The position numbers were made by a program, and so were the translations under genes. Below, piece after piece: positions 40,922 to 46,264 of a DNA stretch of 64,000 bases (positions are counted from its first letter, which is position 1; every line of letters begins with the position of its first letter). The notes beneath the pieces were generated by a model. The model ran no database searches. It saw only the letters and a list, made by a program, of their open reading frames with translations, and was not told where the DNA came from. Source of the stretch: Phyllobacteriaceae bacterium (GTDB lineage: Bacteria > Pseudomonadota > Alphaproteobacteria > Rhizobiales > Rhizobiaceae); contig JADJTR010000005.1 in assembly GCA_016711085.1 (NCBI GenBank), positions 230,727 to 294,726 of the forward strand, given 5' to 3'.

Positions 40922-41221
40922 ATGATCGACTGGAGCCTTATCGTTGGGTTCGACTGGGACATCGGCAACGCCCGGAAAAGTGTCGACAAACACGATGTCG
41001 CCCAGGCGGAAGCCGAGCAGGTCTTCTTCAATGAACCTCTGCTCGTGCTGCCGGACGAAAGGCACAGCAGGGATGAGGTGCGCATCCACGCGTTGGGACA
41101 AACCGACGATGGCCGCCTACTGCATTTGACCTTCACGCTGAGGCGGGACGCAACACTGATCCGGGTGATCTCGGCCCGGGACATGAGCCGCAAGGAGCGG
41201 ACGCATTATGAAAAAGCCTGA
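40922..41221 (+). CDS. brnT: BrnT-family toxin (DUF497 ribonuclease type)
   Basis: 99-aa ORF ...FDWDIGNARKSVDKHDVAQAEAEQVF...RIHALGQTDDGRLLHLTFTLRRDATLIRVISARDMSRKERTHYE matches the BrnT pattern (F.WD..K...N..KHGV.F.EA..VF...R.ISAR.A...E...Y). Confidence 0.8.
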   Translation: MIDWSLIVGFDWDIGNARKSVDKHDVAQAEAEQVFFNEPLLVLPDERHSRDEVRIHALGQTDDGRLLHLTFTLRRDATLIRVISARDMSRKERTHYEKA

Positions 41222-41603
41222 ACCCGCCTTCGCCTCGGAAGCCGAGGAACGCGCCTTCTGGGAAAGCCACGATTCGGCCGACCGGCTCGACTGGTCGAAG
41301 GCGGGAAAGCTGCGCCTGCCGAATCTGAAGCCCTCGTCCGTCTCGATTTCGCTGCGCCTGCCGCAATCCCTGCTTGAGCGCATCAAGATCGCCGCCGCCA
41401 AACGCGACGTGCCTTACCAGTCGCTGATCAAGGTCTGGCTGAACGAAAAGGCGGACGGGGAAGGTAAAAGACTACCTCGCCCGAACCGCGCCGACGCCTA
41501 CCGCGACGAAGAGCGGCACGTCCTGCCTCTTCCCTTCCCTGCTTGCGGGGAGGGTGTCGCCCGCAGGGCGACGGGTAGGGGTGGCCGCGAAGCGGCGGCG
41601 TGA
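41208..41603 (+). CDS. brnA: BrnA-family antitoxin with a ~50-aa C-terminal extension
   Basis: Overlaps the brnT end by 14 nt. ...EERAFWESHDS...SVSISLRLPQSLLERIKIAAAKRDVPYQSLIKVWLNEK is the BrnA/CopG-like core. The ORF then reads through a REP-like hairpin pair to the stop at 41603. Confidence 0.75.
   Translation: MKKPEPAFASEAEERAFWESHDSADRLDWSKAGKLRLPNLKPSSVSISLRLPQSLLERIKIAAAKRDVPYQSLIKVWLNEKADGEGKRLPRPNRADAYRDEERHVLPLPFPACGEGVARRATGRGGREAAA
41532..41580. repeat. REP-like double hairpin (solo copy)
   Basis: CTTCCCTGC-tt-GCGGGGAGG followed by TCGCCC-gca-GGGCGA and ACGGGTAGGGG. The same arm-plus-tail architecture recurs at 46265-46300, and related stems recur at 45061-45129. Confidence 0.45.
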
Positions 41604-41652: not shown

Positions 41653-43859
41653 TCAGAGCACCAGCGCCAACAATTTCTCGATGGCGTCGCGCAGCGCCAA
41701 CAATGCCGCCTGCCCTTGCGGCGTCGTGGCAATCGATGCCGTCGCACCGATGAAGGCGTAGACCCTTTCGAGAAAGCCGATGGTCCCGAGCACGAACCGG
41801 CGCTTCGGCGTCACGATGGTGGAAGGTTTCCCCGAATCCGCCTGCGTCGGAACGACACTCGACAGATCGGCGGCTTCCTCCCGGATTTGCTGAACAACCC
41901 TGTCGAACGCCGGCGTCGTCATGTCGCTGTCCGAAAGCTCGTTCAGCGCATCCACCACTTTTTCGATCGGTTCCGTCAGTCCCTTGCCGACAGCCTTCTC
42001 CTCGTCGATCGGCGCCTCCGCCATCGCCCGCTCGCGCGCCTCTGGCAGCGGGAAATGGGTAATGAGGAGAAAATGCTTGGCGAAGAACCGGCGGATCAGG
42101 TCGTCGAGTCCTGCCCCCCACATCTCGAAGTCGGCGTGATCGAATTCCTTCTGAAGCGGCCCGAAGAACGACCGCAGGAAATCGGTGTACGGTCGCGTGC
42201 CGCGTTCGCCAAGATGGGTTCGGTAATGAACCAGACAAGACCGAAATACCTTCGGCGCATTTCCGGGCAGGACTTCAATGATAGCATCGGCGAGCGCGCA
42301 TTGCAGACCGGGCATTTCTTTCAGATCGTCAGAGGAAAGCGGCGTATCGAGGTCGGGATTGGCCGTGACGTCAATGCGCGTCTTGCCACCTTCCGCCTTG
42401 CCGATGGGGATCGGCGTTGTCGCGTGTTTGAGGATGCCCTTGAGTTCTTCGCTCGACCTCCGGCCTGGCCGGTAGTCGAGCGCGCGCAGCACCGCGGCGC
42501 GCCGGTCCTCGGCGCTCAATCCGACGAGGTTGGTGTAGACAATTTGCCGGGCCAATGGATTGAGTTCGGTCGGCTTCAACAGGAACGGAAACAATCGGTG
42601 GCGCTCGCCACCGGGATCGGCGGCGTAGGCCGCCGCCCACTCCGCCTGGCAATGATCGGACGCTTCATAGTCCGGCGAATACAAGGCGATCACCCTTCCC
42701 GCTCCGGCCAACCTCGCTGAATCTCGCGCACGAAGTTTGCGCCAGGCTGGAAATCGCGAAACTGGACGCGTGTCGTATATCCGGCGGAACGAACGATCTC
42801 GTCGATCTCGCGCGCGGCGCTTTCGTCCTTGTGCGAATAGCTGATGAAGAAATCCCATTGCGGTCCCCCGCCGGCTTCGGCCACGCCATCGCCGCCCATG
42901 ACAATGGCGCCGGCATCTTGCGCGGGGCGGACTTCGGGGGGATCGGAAGGCGGATCGGCCGGATCGGTCTCGGCTAGTTTGCGCCGGGCTTCCTCGACCC
43001 AGGAGGCGATTTCGCCATTGATCGCCTCCGCCGGCCGATCCCAGAAATCCTTTCGCCCGTCGCCGAGCGCGATGCGGCGGTCGAGTTCCTCGGCCATTTC
43101 GCGCGGCAGGCCGAAAGACGGCGCGGCGGCGACGCGGGCGCGAAACCATTCGCTCCAGATCGGCCAGTTTGTTTTGGGAAAGCGGTCCGGATCGGACGAC
43201 GGCGCGGTCGCCAGAGCCGTATCGAGGTGCCGGTGCTCCTTTTCCCACCAGTCCGGAGCCGCGCCCGGCCACAGCGGCCGGTCGGCCAGTTCGGCCGGCG
43301 GAACGCCGCTTTCTAGCGCTCGCGCATCGGCCGTCACGGCGGCCCAAACGGCGGCGGCGGCTCTGGCGGCGGCGGCGGCGTAGGCGGCGGCTCTGGCGGC
43401 GGCGTAGGCGTAGGCGGCGGCGTAGGCGTAGGCGGCGGCGTAGGCGTCGGCGGCGGCTCTGGCGGCGGCGACGGCTCTGGCGGCGGCTCTGGCGGCGGCG
43501 GCGGCGTAGGCGTAGGCGGCGGCGTAGGCGTAGGCGGCGACGGCGTCGGCGGCGGCTCTGGCGGCGGCGTAGGCGTAGGCGGCGGCTCTGGCGGCGGCTC
43601 GTTCGATTTCGCGGGTCGGATATGTGGCGGCGACCCGCGAAATCGCGTTCGCCCGAAAAACCGCTTCTGTCAAGCGCGGAGCAATCGCCGGATCCGCGAA
43701 TCCGGCGCGCCAGGCGCGACCGGCAAAGGGCAGTGCGCGCATGGCCGCGCGCAGCGCGACGACTTTCGAAAACGCGATGCCATTGCTTTCCGGTCGCGCC
43801 TTCAGCCACGCCTCGACCTGATTGGCGTTCCTAAATCCCCCCTTCGGTATCCCCGCCAT
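41653..43859 (-). pseudogene. TIR-domain protein (~735 codons) with unassigned N- and C-terminal regions; reading frame interrupted once near 42710
   Basis: N-terminal part is in ORF 42690..44075 from MAGIPKGGF (ATG 43859). C-terminal part is in ORF 41653..43809. TIR core is WDFFISYSHKDESAAREIDEIVRSAGYTTRVQFRDFQPGANFVREIQRG / LAGAGRVIALYSPDYEASDHCQAEWAAAYA (about 42470-42854). The halves join if 1 nt is restored at 42708-42713. Confidence 0.75.
43348..43600 (-). repeat. in-frame triplet/hexamer microsatellite encoding an Ala/Tyr/Arg tract inside the TIR gene
   Basis: Plus strand is built only from GGC, TCT, GTA, GTC and GAC triplets. On the coding strand this reads RAAARAAAYAYAAARAAADAVAAYAYAAAYAYAAAAARAAARAVAAARAAADAYAAAYAYAAAYAYAAARAAAYAAAAARAAAA. 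All six frames are open across it. Confidence 0.9.
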
Positions 43860-43941: not shown

Positions 43942-44133
43942 TCGCTTCGCTCGCCACCTTGTAACTCTTCATGTGCCGAATCCGGTATGGTGCCGGTTGC
44001 GGTGGCGGACGGGAGACCGACCCACCTCTGGGCGTGCGAGCCCGTGGGAGGCCGGGTCGCCGTCCGCCGTTCCATCGAACCCGAACAGTCGCATGGGCCG
44101 CAAGCGAAGCCCGTTTAGGCAAGGATGGGAAAG
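43942..44133 (+). ncRNA. candidate IS110 bridge (guide) RNA region, copy A
   Basis: ~190-nt non-coding stretch 5' of the recombinase ORF, GC-rich with several short stem-loops (e.g. GGTGCCGGTTGCGGTGGC...). This is where IS110-subgroup elements encode their bridge RNA. No covariance model was run. Confidence 0.3.
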
Positions 44134-45046
44134 ATGGACGCCATTGTTGTGGGGATCGACGTTTCGAAGGATCGTCTTGACGTATGTGTGACGCCGTCCG
44201 GGAGGCGATGGCTGAAGCCAATGACGCGGCCGGGGTCGAGAAGCTCGCGTTGCCGGGGGCTGACGCCGGCGGTGGCGCTGGGGCGACCGGGGGCTACGAG
44301 ACGCTGGCGGCGGCGCTTTTCGGCTGGGCTTGGCCGTGGTCGTGGTCAACCGGCGCAGGTGCGTTCGTTCGCCGTGCGCTCGGCAAGCGGGCCAAGACCG
44401 ACCCGATCGATGCGGAAGTGATTGCCCGTTTCGCCGCGGCGAGCGGCGTCAGGCCCAAGCCGCTGCCCGATGAACAAAGCCGCTTGCTGGCCGATCTGGT
44501 GACCCGCCGGCGGCAGATCATAGCCATGATCGTGGCCGAGAAGCCCGGCTGAAGCGGGCCGCCAACCGCCAACTCAAAGGCATTGGCCGCCTGCTCGCGG
44601 CGCTTCGGCGCGAACTCAGGACCCTCGACGCCGATCTGGACAAGCAGATACGCAGCTCGCCGGCGTGGCGCATCAAGGAGCAACTGCTGTCGTCCGTGCC
44701 CGGCGTCGGCAAGGCATATCGCGCACCCTGATTGCCGAGCTGCCGGAGATCAGCAGCCTCGACCGCCGCCAGATCGCTTCGCTGGCCGGCCTCGCTCCGT
44801 TCCCCGGCAGTCCGGCAAATGGCGAGGCAAGAGCTTCATCAGCGGCGGCAGGGCGAGCGTGCGCGCCGCCCTCTTCTGGGCGCTTTGGTCGCTTCGCGAC
44901 ACAATCCGTCCTCAAGGCCTTCCGCGACAAACTCGTCGCGCAGGAAAACCAGGATCGTCGCCATCGTCGCGACAGCCCGCAAACTGCTCACCATCCTCAA
45001 CGCCATCATTCGGGAAAACCAACCATGGCGCCAACAAAACGCTTGA
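44134..45046 (+). pseudogene. IS110-family transposase, copy A, multiple frame breaks
   Basis: Pieces are in ORFs 44125..44421, 44184..44552, 44583.., 44665.. and 44732..45046. ATG 44134 is taken as the start because the upstream ATG is out of frame in copy B. Confidence 0.8.
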
Positions 45047-45060
45047 CCGCCAAGACAGTC

Positions 45061-45129
45061 GCTCTCCCCGTGAACGGGGCGAGGTTGAACCAGCGCCTCC
45101 TTTAACCTCGCCCCGCTTGCGGGGAGAGC
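45061..45129. repeat. centre of the IS110 palindrome: two inverted REP-like hairpins around a 17-nt unique spacer
   Basis: GCTCTCCCCG-tgaa-CGGGGCGAGG tt [gaaccagcgcctccttt, 45087-45103] aa CCTCGCCCCG-cttg-CGGGGAGAGC. Confidence 0.7.
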
Positions 45130-45143
45130 GACTGTCTTGGCGG

Positions 45144-46073
45144 TCAAGCGTTTTGTTGGCGCCATGGTTGGTTTTCCCGAATGATGGCGTTGAGGATGGT
45201 GAGCAGTTTGCGGGCTGTCGCGACGATGGCGACGATCCTGGCTTCCCTGCGCGACGAGTTTGTCGCGGAAGGCCTTGAGGGACTGGATTGTGTCGCGAAG
45301 CGACCAAAGCGCCCATGAAGAGGGCGGCGCGCACGCTCGCCCTGCCGCCGCTGATGGGCTTTCGCCTGCCATTTGCCGGACTGGGTGAACGGGAGCGAGG
45401 CCGGCCAGCGAAGCGATCTGGCGGCGGTCGAGGCTGCCGATCTCCGGCAGCCCGGCAATCAGGTGCGCGATATGCCCTTGCCGACGCCGGGCACGGACGA
45501 CAGCAGTTGCTCCTTGATGCGCCACGCCGGCGAGCTGCGTATCTGCTTGTCCAGATCGGCGTCGAGGGTCTCGAGTTCGCGCCGAAGCGCCGCGAGCAGG
45601 CGGCCAATGCTCTTCTTGAGTTGGCGGTTGGCGGCCCGCTTCAGCCGGGCTTCCTCGGCCACGATCATGGCCGATGATCTGCCGCCGGCGGGTCACCAGA
45701 TCGGCCAGCAAGCGGCTTTGTTCATCGGGCAGCGGCTTGGGCCTGACGCCGCTCGCCGCGGCGAAACGGGCAATCACTTCCGCATCGATCGGGTCGGTCT
45801 TGGCCCGCTTGCCGAGCGCATCGGCGAACGAACGCACCTGCGCCGGGTTGACCACGACCACGGCCAAGCCCGCAGCCGAAAGCGCCGCCGCCGCCAGCGT
45901 CTCGTAGCCCCCGGTCGCCTCCAGCGCCACAAGCGCCGGCGTCAGCCCGGCCGCGCAACGCGAGCTTCTCGACCCCGGCCGCGTCATTGGCTTCAGCCAT
46001 CGCCTCCCCGGACGGCGTCACATACGTCAAGACGATCCTTCGAAACGTCGATCCCCACAACAATGGCGTCCAT
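45144..46073 (-). pseudogene. IS110-family transposase, copy B, multiple frame breaks
   Basis: Pieces are in ORFs 45144..45458, 45459..45668, 44912..45607, 44839..45987 and 45993..46223. Start MDAIVVGIDVSKD at 46073. Confidence 0.8.
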
Positions 46074-46264
46074 CTTCTCCCATCCTTGCCTAAACGGGCT
46101 TCGCTTGCGGCCCAGGCGACTGTTCGGGTTCGATGGAACGGCGGACGGCGACCCAGGCTCTCCCACGGGCTCGCACGCCCAGAGGTGGGTCGGTCTCCCG
46201 TCCGCCACCGCAACCGGCACCATACCGGATTCGGCACATGAAGAGTTACAAGGTGGCCCGAAGG
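46074..46264 (-). ncRNA. candidate IS110 bridge (guide) RNA region, copy B
   Basis: Mirror image of 43942-44133 with a few substitutions and indels. Same reasoning as for copy A. Confidence 0.3.

What the first reader, a model, noticed from the sequence alone, without database searches (positions are those of the whole stretch)
43348..43600. Codon-homogeneous triplet microsatellite encodes an ~84-residue Ala/Tyr/Arg tract inside the TIR gene
Seen in sequence:
- On the coding strand every Ala in the tract is GCC, every internal Arg is AGA, every Tyr is TAC, Asp is GAC and Val is GTC.
- The DNA is effectively a concatenation of units such as GCC-GCC-GCC-AGA and GCC-GCC-GCC-TAC-GCC-TAC.
- Elsewhere in the same gene Arg is mostly CGN by eye.

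Inference:
- Such codon uniformity points to recent slippage or unequal-recombination expansion rather than an old, selected sequence.
- All unit lengths are multiples of 3, so expansion or contraction keeps the frame.
- This would make it a length-variable (contingency-like) module in the putative sensor part of a defence-type protein.
- The roughly 4-residue periodicity of the non-Ala positions would put Tyr and Arg on one face of a long helix.
Basis: partly seen in the sequence, partly recalled or inferred. Interest (0 to 1): 0.65.

Follow-up and report, generated by a model that had tools for sequence, protein, structure and literature searches.

The report
Codon-pure alanine repeat in TIR gene
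A real 249-base in-frame DNA repeat encodes an alanine-rich helical insert in a frameshifted TIR-domain gene; the same codon-pure tract recurs across a large uncharacterised protein family and in many phage proteins, and it looks slippage-built but not like an on/off switch.

Summary
On the minus strand, 83 codons (43350-43598) read 60/60 Ala=GCC, 7/7 Arg=AGA, 12/12 Tyr=TAC. The rest of the gene uses GCC for 43/97 Ala and AGA for 0/57 Arg.

- The tract is not a one-off recent expansion. It fills a hypervariable, roughly 65-90-residue helical insert between two conserved halves of an uncharacterised module (about 7,000 clusters; no Pfam or NCBIfam model). Here that module is fused to a TIR_2 domain.
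- Nine of 13 sampled relatives carry Ala-rich tracts with the same purity (Ala GCC 404/424). Four, including the syntenic orthologue, have a complex sequence there.
- Internal exact repeats up to 43 nt, indel alleles bounded by direct repeats, and lineage-specific codon choices all support slippage or unequal recombination.
- GCC-only coding also cuts predicted mRNA self-pairing about threefold, so selection probably helps maintain purity.
- Length is invariant in most near-identical pairs, and every change stays in frame. It is not a classical contingency locus.
- The claim that Tyr and Arg lie on one helix face fails. AlphaFold predicts a low-confidence two-helix hairpin.
- The gene has a 1-nt frameshift in the TIR domain and an IS110 palindrome upstream.
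- Similar GCC- or GCT-pure tracts are common in phage proteins.

The parts
41653..43859 (-). Whole gene. It gives a 735-aa product after repair of a 1-nt frameshift. Order of parts: conserved module with the hypervariable insert, Pro-rich linker, TIR_2 domain, C-terminal domain. Start ATG at 43859, stop codon at 41653-41655.
   Evidence: ORF list and reconstruction. Homologues align over the N-terminal 300 aa and over the TIR plus C-terminus.
43599..43859 (-). N-terminal conserved half of the module (aa 1-87; motifs WL..P, RAA(L/M)R(V/A)LP, FRAN.IS).
   Evidence: Alignment A1 has invariant L19, R37 and P44. AlphaFold2 pLDDT is 72-89 here. No Pfam or NCBIfam match.
43350..43598 (-). The tract: 83 codons (aa 88-170), Ala60 Tyr12 Arg7 Asp2 Val2. 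It is an imperfect in-frame 12/18-nt minisatellite of (GCC)1-5 followed by one of AGA, TAC, GAC or GTC.
   Evidence: It contains exact internal repeats of 27-43 nt at offsets of 18-195 nt, all multiples of 3. It is predicted to be the two arms of a helical hairpin, H83-133 and H138-183, with pLDDT 57-72.
42960..43349 (-). Second conserved half of the module (aa 171-300; motifs W..V..D, PLWP, W.(V/I)W..W(Y/F), FWDR....N.EIA).
   Evidence: Invariant D178, W197, W235 and W238. pLDDT about 90. 81% nt identity to the syntenic orthologue L003.
42852..42959 (-). Pro/Asp-rich linker (aa 301-336).
   Evidence: AlphaFold2 pLDDT below 60 and no secondary structure. Not conserved in alignment A1.
42505..42851 (-). 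TIR_2 domain (aa 337-452 of the repaired protein), including the conserved Glu in HCQAEW.
   Evidence: Pfam PF13676, E=2.3e-24, 86.7 bits against a cut-off of 28. It aligns without a gap to the TIR of P0008, including CQDEW.
42711..42713 (-). Frameshift site. One base is missing in GGT(T)TG, so the native frame ends at a TGA at 42690-42692. This is either a real pseudogenising mutation or a homopolymer sequencing error.
   Evidence: The two frames join at base 42711. The Pfam TIR_2 match and the P0008 alignment both run straight across the junction.
41656..42504 (-). C-terminal domain of unknown function (aa 453-735) with a hydrophobic tail. It is shared with the TIR protein P0008.
   Evidence: BLASTP to P0008, E=5e-68 over TIR plus C-terminus. 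No Pfam match. A weak hhalign hint (probability 28%) of similarity to the C-terminal region of ordinary family members.

Best explanation
The tract is the low-complexity state of a hypervariable alpha-helical insert. The insert is predicted to be a two-helix hairpin or stalk, typically about 65-90 residues long. It lies between the two conserved halves of an uncharacterised Trp-rich helical module. In this gene the module is fused to a TIR (NADase-type) effector domain.

At the DNA level the tract is an imperfect in-frame minisatellite of (GCC)n-NNN units. It is built and continually remodelled by slipped-strand mispairing or unequal recombination between its own 27-43-nt direct repeats. That process copies codons and so homogenises them.

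Purifying selection against G-ending codons probably helps keep it GCY-pure, because such codons would make the mRNA or single-stranded DNA massively self-complementary.

Length appears bounded rather than free-running. Changes happen on evolutionary timescales and never switch the reading frame. The tract therefore modulates the length and surface of a stalk rather than turning the gene on or off.

What is shown: the tract, its repeat anatomy, the family-wide codon purity, the indel alleles in a relative, and the RNA-folding contrast. What is inferred: the mutational mechanism, the role of selection, the hairpin structure (low confidence), and any sensor role.
For: 1. Repeat anatomy. Exact internal repeats reach 43 nt and all offsets are multiples of 3. 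TRF reports periods of 12, 18 and 30.

2. Family-wide codon purity. In 9 of 13 sampled members Ala is GCC in 404/424 tract codons, against 30-56% in the rest of each gene (Fisher p from 1e-6 to 1e-19). Non-Ala codons within a tract end uniformly in C (window, L005, L006, L010, L015, L016) or in T (L001, L002, L008). This lineage-specific uniformity is what unit copying predicts.

3. A synonymous variant copied along with its unit. GCC-GCA-GGT recurs 4-5 times in L019-L021.

4. Alleles differing only in the tract. L019, L020 and L021 have 100% identical flanks over about 4.9 kb. They differ by a 123-nt deletion between 37-nt direct repeats and by a 51-nt duplication carrying one substitution. 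P0058 and P0098 differ by a single Ala.

5. Rapid turnover at this locus. The syntenic orthologue L003 has flanks 94-98% identical in nucleotides. It nevertheless has a non-repetitive, lower-GC 94-aa sequence at this site and a different C-terminal effector.

6. Bounded length. The insert has a median of 68 aa and an interquartile range of 58-77 in 101 modules of the best-scoring family representatives. The Ala fraction runs continuously from 0.14 to 0.73.

7. RNA folding. The real tract has an MFE of -67.6 kcal/mol, against -194.5 +/- 11.7 for synonymous recodings using the gene's own codon usage. All-GCG gives -180, all-GCT -86 and all-GCA -62. Three other tracts give the same picture.

8. 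A codon-unbiased search. A search for (AAAY)3AAA in viral contigs found 54 loci. In 38 the Ala codons were pure: 21 GCC and 17 GCT, and none pure GCG or GCA.

9. Structure prediction. AlphaFold2 models two long antiparallel helices for the tract on a confident core (pTM 0.72; core pLDDT about 90, tract 57-72). A second family member also gives a helical, low-confidence insert.
Against: - Most near-identical sequences have identical tract lengths. Examples are the P0025 cluster (8 sequences, all 139 aa), the P0020 cluster (5 sequences, all 109 aa), and the pairs P0013/P0016, P0027/P0104 and P0007/P0103. L008 and L009 differ by 11 SNPs with no indel. Instability is therefore modest, or confined to the most perfect repeats.
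- The one clear set of indel alleles comes from short-read marine metagenome assemblies that may sample a single population. Assembler collapse or expansion cannot be fully excluded.
- No read-level or strain-level data exist for this window's own tract. No close relative carrying it is in the databases.
- Codon purity alone could be maintained by selection without recent slippage.
- The near-absence of Glu, Lys, Gln and Leu (0-0.3% in tracts, against 3.6-9.7% elsewhere) is not explained by RNA-structure avoidance. It remains unaccounted for.
- The hairpin model has low confidence.
Confidence: 0.62

Rival explanations
1. The tract is a contingency-like, hypermutable module whose length changes at high frequency within populations. 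The changes would tune or diversify the sensor part of a defence protein.
For: - The window's tract has highly perfect internal repeats.
- Three alleles with 100% identical flanks differ only in tract length in a relative.
- One pair of sequences differs by a single-codon indel.
- The gene sits at a locus that differs sharply between genomes about 95% identical to each other.
- Fusion to variable effectors, either TIR or non-TIR C-termini, is typical of conflict systems.
Against: - All units are multiples of 3, so no expression switch is possible.
- Tract length is invariant in most clusters at 90% identity or more, and across strains 0.2% divergent.
- Insert length is bounded across the family.
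- There is no population data for this genome.
- In this genome the gene is frameshifted and may not be functional.
- Family members mostly sit among housekeeping genes, not in defence islands.
Confidence: 0.15
2. Codon purity is maintained purely by selection, not by recent repeat turnover. The selection could be against mRNA or ssDNA self-complementarity, or for reading by a single tRNA-Ala. The tract would then be an old, stable, selected Ala-rich helix.
For: - GCC-only coding lowers predicted folding energy about threefold relative to synonymous recodings. GCC or GCT is among the least structured homogeneous options in all five tracts tested, and GCG is always the worst.
- Phage (AAAY)n tracts are pure GCC or pure GCT and never pure GCG or GCA.
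- Length is stable in most close pairs.
Against: - This does not explain why Tyr, Asp and Arg codons are also uniform within a tract yet differ between lineages (TAC/GAC/AGA against TAT/GAT/CGT).
- It does not explain the exact 27-43-nt higher-order repeats.
- It does not explain the unit-linked GCA variant.
- It does not explain indel alleles bounded by direct repeats.
- It does not explain the complete replacement of the region between close relatives: L013 against L015, and the window against L003.
Confidence: 0.14
3. The tract is the variable region of a diversity-generating retroelement, or of a similar targeted mutator. AAY codons of a template would be mutated at adenines to give NNY codons on an invariant GCC scaffold.
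For: - 229 of 244 non-Ala codons in ten family tracts are NNY.
- The invariant positions contain no adenine.
- The residue set (D, Y, N, S, T, R, H, V, G, F) is the set reachable from AAY.
Against: - There is no second, template-like copy of the tract anywhere in the 64-kb window.
- There is none within 3-4 kb of eight other family tracts.
- Neighbouring genes are housekeeping, and no reverse transcriptase appears among the called genes.
- AGA and CAA codons do not fit the model.
- The tract has tandem higher-order repeats that a DGR does not require.
- The tract is internal, not at the 3' end of the gene.
Confidence: 0.03
4. The tract, or its length, is an artefact or a by-product of decay. 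One version is assembly collapse or expansion of a repeat. The other is unconstrained expansion in a gene that is already a pseudogene.
For: - The gene carries a 1-nt frameshift.
- The adjacent 2.3-kb IS110 palindrome, with many frameshifts, hints at assembly problems or local decay.
- Assemblies of a relative disagree on tract length.
Against: - The tract is perfectly in frame and codon-pure, with no indel noise.
- The same kind of tract occurs in intact genes from at least nine independent assemblies. It is reproduced identically in different samples: L006/L007 are 100% identical, L008/L009 are 99.8% identical with no gap, and L001 was seen in 6 samples.
- The tract's length of 83 aa lies within the family norm.
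Confidence: 0.05

Closest known systems
Coding microsatellites and minisatellites, and codon-homogeneous low-complexity regions produced by replication slippage. An example is the mycobacterial PE_PGRS 'polymorphic GC-rich repetitive sequences', which carry in-frame triplet SSR polymorphism (PMC1501019).
   Same: Both are GC-rich triplet-based repeats, and (GGC/GCC)n is the same duplex as in PGRS. Both have near-single-codon usage, in-frame indels between direct repeats and length differences among relatives.
   Different: This tract is read on the C-rich strand as Ala-rich helix, not Gly-rich. It has no PE domain. It occupies one defined insert site in a globular module, its length is bounded, and it is mostly stable among close strains.
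Simple-sequence contingency loci (phase-variable genes of Neisseria and Haemophilus; SSR dynamics, PMC4085013).
   Same: A repeat tract inside a gene of a conflict-type protein, with slippage as the likely mutational mechanism.
   Different: Unit lengths are multiples of 3, so nothing switches on or off. Units are imperfect. High-frequency within-strain variation is not shown, and several comparisons argue against it.
Repeats with high internal conservation in fungal and bacterial NLR-type immune receptors. These are reshuffled by unequal crossing-over (PMC4986451).
   Same: Near-identical repeat units sit in the non-effector part of a protein whose effector domain is swappable. Concerted evolution operates, and variation is concentrated at a few positions per unit.
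   Different: The units here are 2-6 residues of Ala plus one other residue, not 24-42-residue folded repeats. There is no NTPase domain. Diversifying selection was not tested.
Phage and bacterial small proteins with Ala-rich A/Y/D/W/R tracts, some matching Pfam Imm5_like (PF21805), DUF6931 or DUF7666.
   Same: Both have the same kind of tract, (GCC or GCT)2-5 plus an NNY codon, encoding AAAY, AAAD, AAAR, AAAN, AAAH or AAAW. It follows a helical globular domain and shows the same codon purity, even in AT-rich phage genomes.
   Different: The flanking domains show no detectable homology to the module here. There is no Pfam hit and no meaningful hhalign match. In those proteins the tract lies towards the C-terminus (some continue with a short tail), not between two halves of a domain.
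TIR-domain NADase effectors of bacterial defence systems (Thoeris ThsB, SAVED-TIR, TIR-only proteins).
   Same: A TIR_2 domain with the conserved Glu. It is fused to a variable non-catalytic module.
   Different: No partner genes are present (ThsA, CBASS, retron and so on). PADLOC matches are weak and limited to the TIR domain. The gene is frameshifted here. Neither defence function nor NADase activity has been tested.

Membership tests
TIR domain protein (Pfam TIR_2, PF13676) | Profile match above the curated gathering score | tested here: met
   E=2.3e-24, 86.7 bits against a cut-off of 28, covering aa 337-452 of the frameshift-repaired product.
TIR domain protein (Pfam TIR_2, PF13676) | Conserved catalytic-type Glu after the conserved Cys/Ser motif | tested here: met
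   HCQAEW in the window aligns with ICQDEW in P0008. P0005 has HCREEL. That this Glu is the NADase catalytic residue rests on established knowledge of TIR NADases and was not tested here.
TIR domain protein (Pfam TIR_2, PF13676) | Intact reading frame through the domain | tested here: not met
   One base is missing at 42711-42713, so the native frame stops at 42690. Whether this is a real mutation or a sequencing error cannot be told.
Simple-sequence contingency (phase-variation) locus | A change in repeat number shifts the frame or alters promoter spacing, switching expression | tested here: not met
   All units and all internal repeat offsets are multiples of 3. The tract is internal to the ORF.
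Simple-sequence contingency (phase-variation) locus | High-frequency length polymorphism within a strain or population | tested here: inconclusive
   One trio of relatives with identical flanks differs by -123 and +51 nt. Most near-identical pairs and clusters are length-invariant. No reads or strains are available for this genome.
Diversity-generating retroelement variable region | A nearby template repeat that differs from the variable region at adenines | tested here: not met
   No second copy was found in the 64-kb window or within 3-4 kb of eight other family tracts.
Diversity-generating retroelement variable region | An associated reverse transcriptase gene | tested here: inconclusive
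   None appears among the called genes around the family loci. The window's ORFs were not all scanned, and the rest of the genome is not available.
Imm5_like (PF21805), DUF6931 and DUF7666 proteins with Ala-rich tracts | Profile match of the flanking domain | tested here: not met
   No hit at E<=1 for the window protein or for 22 family members. hhalign of family alignment A1 against seven such viral proteins aligned only 20 columns at 5% identity.
PE_PGRS-type polymorphic GC-rich repeat proteins | An N-terminal PE domain and Gly-rich (GGA/GGN) reading of the repeat | tested here: not met
   The coding frame reads Ala (GCC). The Gly-reading frame is on the opposite strand and is not an ORF of 80 aa or more. 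There is no PE domain.
Uncharacterised module family defined here (N-half + variable insert + PLWP / W.VW.DWY / FWD half) | Conserved motifs on both sides of the insert, in the same order | tested here: met
   L19, R37, P44, D178, W197, W235 and W238 are invariant across 22 sequences. A profile search finds 6,972 cluster representatives at E<=1e-3 and 2,249 at E<=1e-30.

The most novel reading that the evidence does not exclude
GCY-pure Ala-rich tracts are a natural reduced-alphabet binding scaffold, made of Ala plus Tyr, Asp, Arg, Asn and Ser and nearly devoid of Glu, Lys, Gln and Leu. They would be diversified by repeat-unit shuffling rather than by a retroelement. Bacteria would deploy them in sensor-effector proteins such as this TIR fusion, and phages in Imm5-like and other small proteins. 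That would make them a slippage-based diversity generator for molecular recognition in microbial conflicts.
Probability: 0.15. Interest if true: 0.85.

Novelty: new variant of a known kind. Interest (0 to 1): 0.55.

Why it matters
If the explanation holds, this tract is one visible instance of a broader and apparently undescribed regularity.

- Ala-rich helical inserts are written in a single pyrimidine-ending Ala codon plus NNY codons.
- They recur at one site of a very large uncharacterised alphaproteobacterial family with swappable effectors (TIR or non-TIR).
- They also recur in many unrelated phage proteins.

This gives a concrete system for three questions:
- How do slippage and selection on nucleic-acid self-pairing jointly shape low-complexity coding sequence?
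- Do such tracts act as evolvable recognition or spacer elements in conflict proteins?
- What does the orphan module do?

For this particular genome the practical message is more modest. The tract is real, but the gene is frameshifted and flanked by IS debris. There is no evidence that it behaves as a switch.

Tried and rejected
- **DGR hypothesis.** It was prompted by the NNY pattern. It was rejected for action in cis because no template copy exists in the window or near eight other tracts.
- **Homology of the module to Imm5-like proteins.** No Pfam hit and no meaningful hhalign match.
- **Structural neighbours.** Foldseek of both AlphaFold2 models against the PDB, and of the first against BFVD, gave nothing at E<=0.001.
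- **The search for related loci with broad alignments A1 and A2.** With the narrower alignment A3, only 2 metagenome loci and 6 genome loci were found, and none in viral contigs.
- **tblastn against plasmids.** No match.
- **Look-ups of P0008 and P0011.** Neither is on record.
- **Homology of the post-TIR C-terminal domain to the usual family C-terminus.** hhalign probability 28%, inconclusive.
- **Literature searches.** Searches for this tract type, for Imm5-like, DUF6931 or DUF7666 repeats, and for Ala-rich hypervariable TIR proteins found no description.
- **One-face amphipathic helix.** Rejected by the helical-moment test.
- **Opposite-strand coding.** Rejected because the flanking conservation is in the minus-strand frame.
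Full report
**1. The observation**

The tract lies on the minus strand in the frame of the long ORF. It occupies codons 43598 down to 43350, which is 83 codons or 249 nt.
- Every Ala is GCC (60/60), every Arg AGA (7/7), every Tyr TAC (12/12). The two Asp are GAC and the two Val are GTC.
- Outside the tract the same gene uses GCC for 43 of 97 Ala, never uses AGA for its 57 Arg, and splits Tyr 6 TAC to 5 TAT.
- Across high-GC3 ORFs of the window, GCC is about half of Ala codons and AGA about 3% of Arg codons. Other Ala-rich stretches in the window use mixed codons.
- Under the gene's own usage, the chance of 60/60 GCC is about 6e-22.
- The peptide parses into AAAR, AAAY, AY, AAAD, AV and AAAAAR units. 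Tandem Repeats Finder reports periods of 12, 18 and 30.

The coordinates are off by two bases at each end, and the tract has 83 residues, not 84.

**2. The gene**

The gene starts at ATG 43859. The product has these parts:
- a conserved N-terminal segment (aa 1-87);
- the tract (aa 88-170);
- a second conserved segment (aa 171-300);
- a Pro-rich linker;
- a TIR_2 domain (PF13676, E=2.3e-24, aa 337-452);
- a further 280-aa domain.

The reading frame breaks inside the TIR domain. One base is missing at 42711-42713 (GGT(T)TG), and the native frame stops at 42690. The Pfam match runs straight across the junction. So does a BLASTP alignment to a Phyllobacteriaceae TIR protein, P0008 (E=5e-68), which includes the conserved CQAEW/CQDEW Glu. 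This is therefore either a real pseudogenising deletion or a homopolymer error.

PADLOC gives only weak matches at the level of the TIR domain.

Immediately upstream, at 43953-46257, two IS110-type transposase copies form a 2.3-kb near-perfect palindrome, and both carry frameshifts. Downstream is a BrnT/CopG-type toxin-antitoxin pair.

**3. The family**

The N-terminal 332 aa retrieve 59 homologues. None of them has a Pfam domain apart from TIR in two.
- They share WL..P, RAALRVLP and FRA..IS before the insert. After it they share W..V..D, PLWP, W.VW.DWY and FWD....N..IA. Seven positions are invariant.
- A profile search of 1.84 billion cluster representatives finds 6,972 members at E<=1e-3 and 2,249 at E<=1e-30. 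Many carry two or three tandem modules.
- No Pfam or NCBIfam model covers the module.
- Foldseek finds no structural neighbour in the PDB or BFVD.
- C-terminal parts vary. Most are a roughly 250-aa helical region with a hydrophobic tail. A few are TIR (this gene, P0005, P0008).
- Sampled members mostly sit singly among housekeeping genes.

**4. The tract is a family-wide feature with family-wide codon purity**

I fetched DNA for 13 members by methods blind to codon usage.
- In nine, the region between the two conserved halves is Ala-rich low complexity (57-74% Ala, 24-88 aa). In all nine, Ala is overwhelmingly GCC. The counts are window 60/60, L002 65/65, L008 59/59, L010 49/49, L001 17/17, L005 46/48, L006 42/45, L015 34/38 and L016 32/43, for a total of 404/424.
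- In the rest of each of those genes GCC is 30-56% of Ala codons (Fisher p from 1e-6 to 1e-19).
- Within a tract the non-Ala codons end uniformly in C (TAC, GAC, AAC, CGC...) or uniformly in T (TAT, GAT, CGT, AAT).
- AGA occurs only here (7 times) and in the closest full-length relative, L005 (2 times).
- Over ten tracts the third codon positions are C 600, T 90, A 22 and G 3. Of the non-Ala codons, 229 of 244 are NNY. Glu, Lys, Gln and Leu are almost absent (0-0.3%, against 3.6-9.7% elsewhere), and Tyr is enriched sevenfold.
- Four members have a complex, non-repetitive, lower-GC sequence of similar length (65-94 aa) with no codon bias.
- One of those four is the syntenic orthologue L003. Its flanks are 94-98% identical to the window, yet only the first 90 nt and a 390-nt mid segment of the gene align, and its C-terminus is not TIR.
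- L013 (complex) and L015 (Ala-rich) are otherwise close relatives.
- In 101 modules of the best-scoring representatives, the insert's Ala fraction forms a continuum from 0.14 to 0.73. Its length has a median of 68 and an interquartile range of 58-77.

**5. Evidence on mechanism**

The window's tract contains exact internal repeats of 27-43 nt at offsets of 18-195 nt, all multiples of three.

In one relative, three assemblies (L019, L020 and L021, from marine metagenomes) have 100% identical flanks over about 4.9 kb and differ only in the tract.
- One difference is a 123-nt deletion between 37-nt direct repeats.
- The other is a 51-nt duplication carrying one GCC-to-ACC substitution.
- In that tract a synonymous GCA always travels with the following GGT, as expected if units are copied.

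Another pair of sequences differs by one Ala codon.

These are the footprints of slipped-strand mispairing or unequal recombination. Stability is nevertheless the rule among near-identical sequences.
- Eight sequences of one 90% cluster all have 139 aa, five of another all have 109 aa, and three pairs are identical.
- Two strains differing by 11 SNPs over 4.9 kb share an identical 246-nt tract.
- Identical tracts are recovered from independent samples.

The metagenome trio could in principle reflect assembler behaviour. However, the repeats involved (37 nt) are shorter than typical final k-mers, and the duplication carries a private substitution.

**6. A second force: self-complementarity**

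The real tract folds to -67.6 kcal/mol as RNA. Recoding the same peptide with the gene's own codon usage gives -194.5 +/- 11.7, and none of 100 recodings was as weakly folded. Three other family tracts behave the same way.

Among homogeneous encodings, GCG is always by far the most structured, and GCC or GCT is among the least.

A codon-unbiased search for (AAAY)3AAA in viral contigs found 54 loci. In 38 of them all 11 Ala codons were identical: 21 GCC, 17 GCT, and never GCG or GCA.

Selection against G-ending codons therefore plausibly maintains purity. It does not explain the lineage-specific uniformity of Tyr, Asp and Arg codons, the higher-order repeats, or the indel alleles. I therefore take both forces to act together.

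**7. Alternatives tested**

A diversity-generating retroelement would predict the NNY pattern. However, no template-like copy exists in the window or within 3-4 kb of eight other tracts, and no reverse transcriptase is among their called neighbours.

Phage contigs contain at least 120 loci with (GCC)3NNN repeated four times.
- In a sample of 80 of these loci about half read as AAAx tracts in small proteins, and some of those match Imm5_like, DUF6931 or DUF7666.
- In the proteins examined closely the tract is GCC-pure even where the rest of the gene never uses GCC.
- These proteins are not detectably homologous to the module here.

**8. Structure and the helix-face claim**

AlphaFold2 (22-sequence alignment, pTM 0.72) gives a confident helical core with pLDDT about 90. 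It models the tract as two antiparallel helices, 83-133 and 138-183, at pLDDT 57-72. A second member with a more complex insert also gives helices at low confidence.

The non-Ala positions have no significant moment at 100 degrees per residue: 0.063, against 0.044 +/- 0.023 for shuffles. The dominant period is 2, because Y-A-Y places side chains on opposite faces. The claim that Tyr and Arg lie on one face of a long helix is not supported.

**9. Verdict**

The tract is real and far from chance. It is best explained as the low-complexity state of a bounded-length, fast-evolving helical insert. Slippage or unequal recombination builds and reshuffles it, and selection against nucleic-acid self-pairing keeps it GCY-pure.

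It is not a classical contingency locus. In this genome it sits in a frameshifted TIR gene next to IS debris.

The function of the module and of the insert is unknown. A sensor or spacer role controlling a swappable effector is inference only.

The family-wide and cross-family regularity (single pyrimidine-ending Ala codon, NNY-only partners, no Glu/Lys/Gln/Leu) appears undescribed in the literature I could search. It is the most interesting outcome of this analysis.

Noticed in passing
window 42711-42713 (minus strand): A 1-nt deletion (GGT(T)TG) breaks the TIR domain. The native frame stops at 42690, and the rest of the TIR plus a 280-aa C-terminal domain continue in another frame to 41653. 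It could be a real pseudogene or a homopolymer sequencing error.
   Followed up: yes
window 43953-46257: Two IS110-family (DEDD) transposase copies lie tail-to-tail as a 2.3-kb near-perfect palindrome. The arms are about 1.15 kb with an 11-nt spacer at 45090-45100. Both copies carry several frameshifts, and the arms differ by small indels. This is either an unusual real structure or an assembly or amplification chimera. It ends 94 nt upstream of the gene's start codon.
   Followed up: partly
window 40922-41603 (+): A BrnT toxin (PF04365, E=2e-22) and a CopG-type antitoxin (PF12441, E=7e-30) overlap by 14 nt and converge on the 3' end of the TIR gene. Relatives have other toxin-antitoxin pairs next to the gene: ParDE in L001, and MazEF near the L003 gene.
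   Followed up: partly
L003 4410-6287 compared with window 41653-43859: The interval between the opp ABC-transporter genes and ilvI is a variable spot. Genomes with 94-98% identical flanks carry versions of the gene with a different insert (complex against microsatellite), a different C-terminal effector (non-TIR against TIR), and different intergenic content.
   Followed up: yes
L018 589-4104 (Rubrimonas cliftonensis DSM 15345) and many representatives: Some family members contain two or three tandem copies of the whole module (N-half, insert, PLWP/W.VW half) in a single 800-1,170-aa protein.
   Followed up: no
L008 3240-3875, L009 1058-1693, L010 3278-3895: A PAP2-family phosphatase gene lies directly upstream of the family gene, in the same orientation, in three loci from two different subfamilies. 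This may be a conserved neighbour.
   Followed up: no
viral contigs L022-L101 and L142-L188, for example L062 342-920, L093 2677-3246, L100 1008-1559: Many phage-encoded small proteins have, towards the C-terminus, long AAAY, AAAD, AAAW, AAAH or AAAN tracts written in pure GCC or pure GCT. This holds even in AT-rich genomes where the rest of the gene never uses GCC. A few match Imm5_like, DUF6931 or DUF7666.
   Followed up: partly
ten family tracts: Glu, Lys, Gln and Leu are normally the best helix formers, yet they are almost absent from these predicted helical tracts. Tyr, Asp, Asn, Ser and Thr, all encoded by NNY codons, are used instead. Neither slippage nor RNA-structure avoidance explains this.
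   Followed up: partly
window 43169-43834 (+) and 41653-43809 (-): Long Arg-rich shadow ORFs, of 221 aa and 718 aa, run through the tract in other frames because GCC/GGC repeats contain no stop codons. They could mislead gene callers.
   Followed up: no
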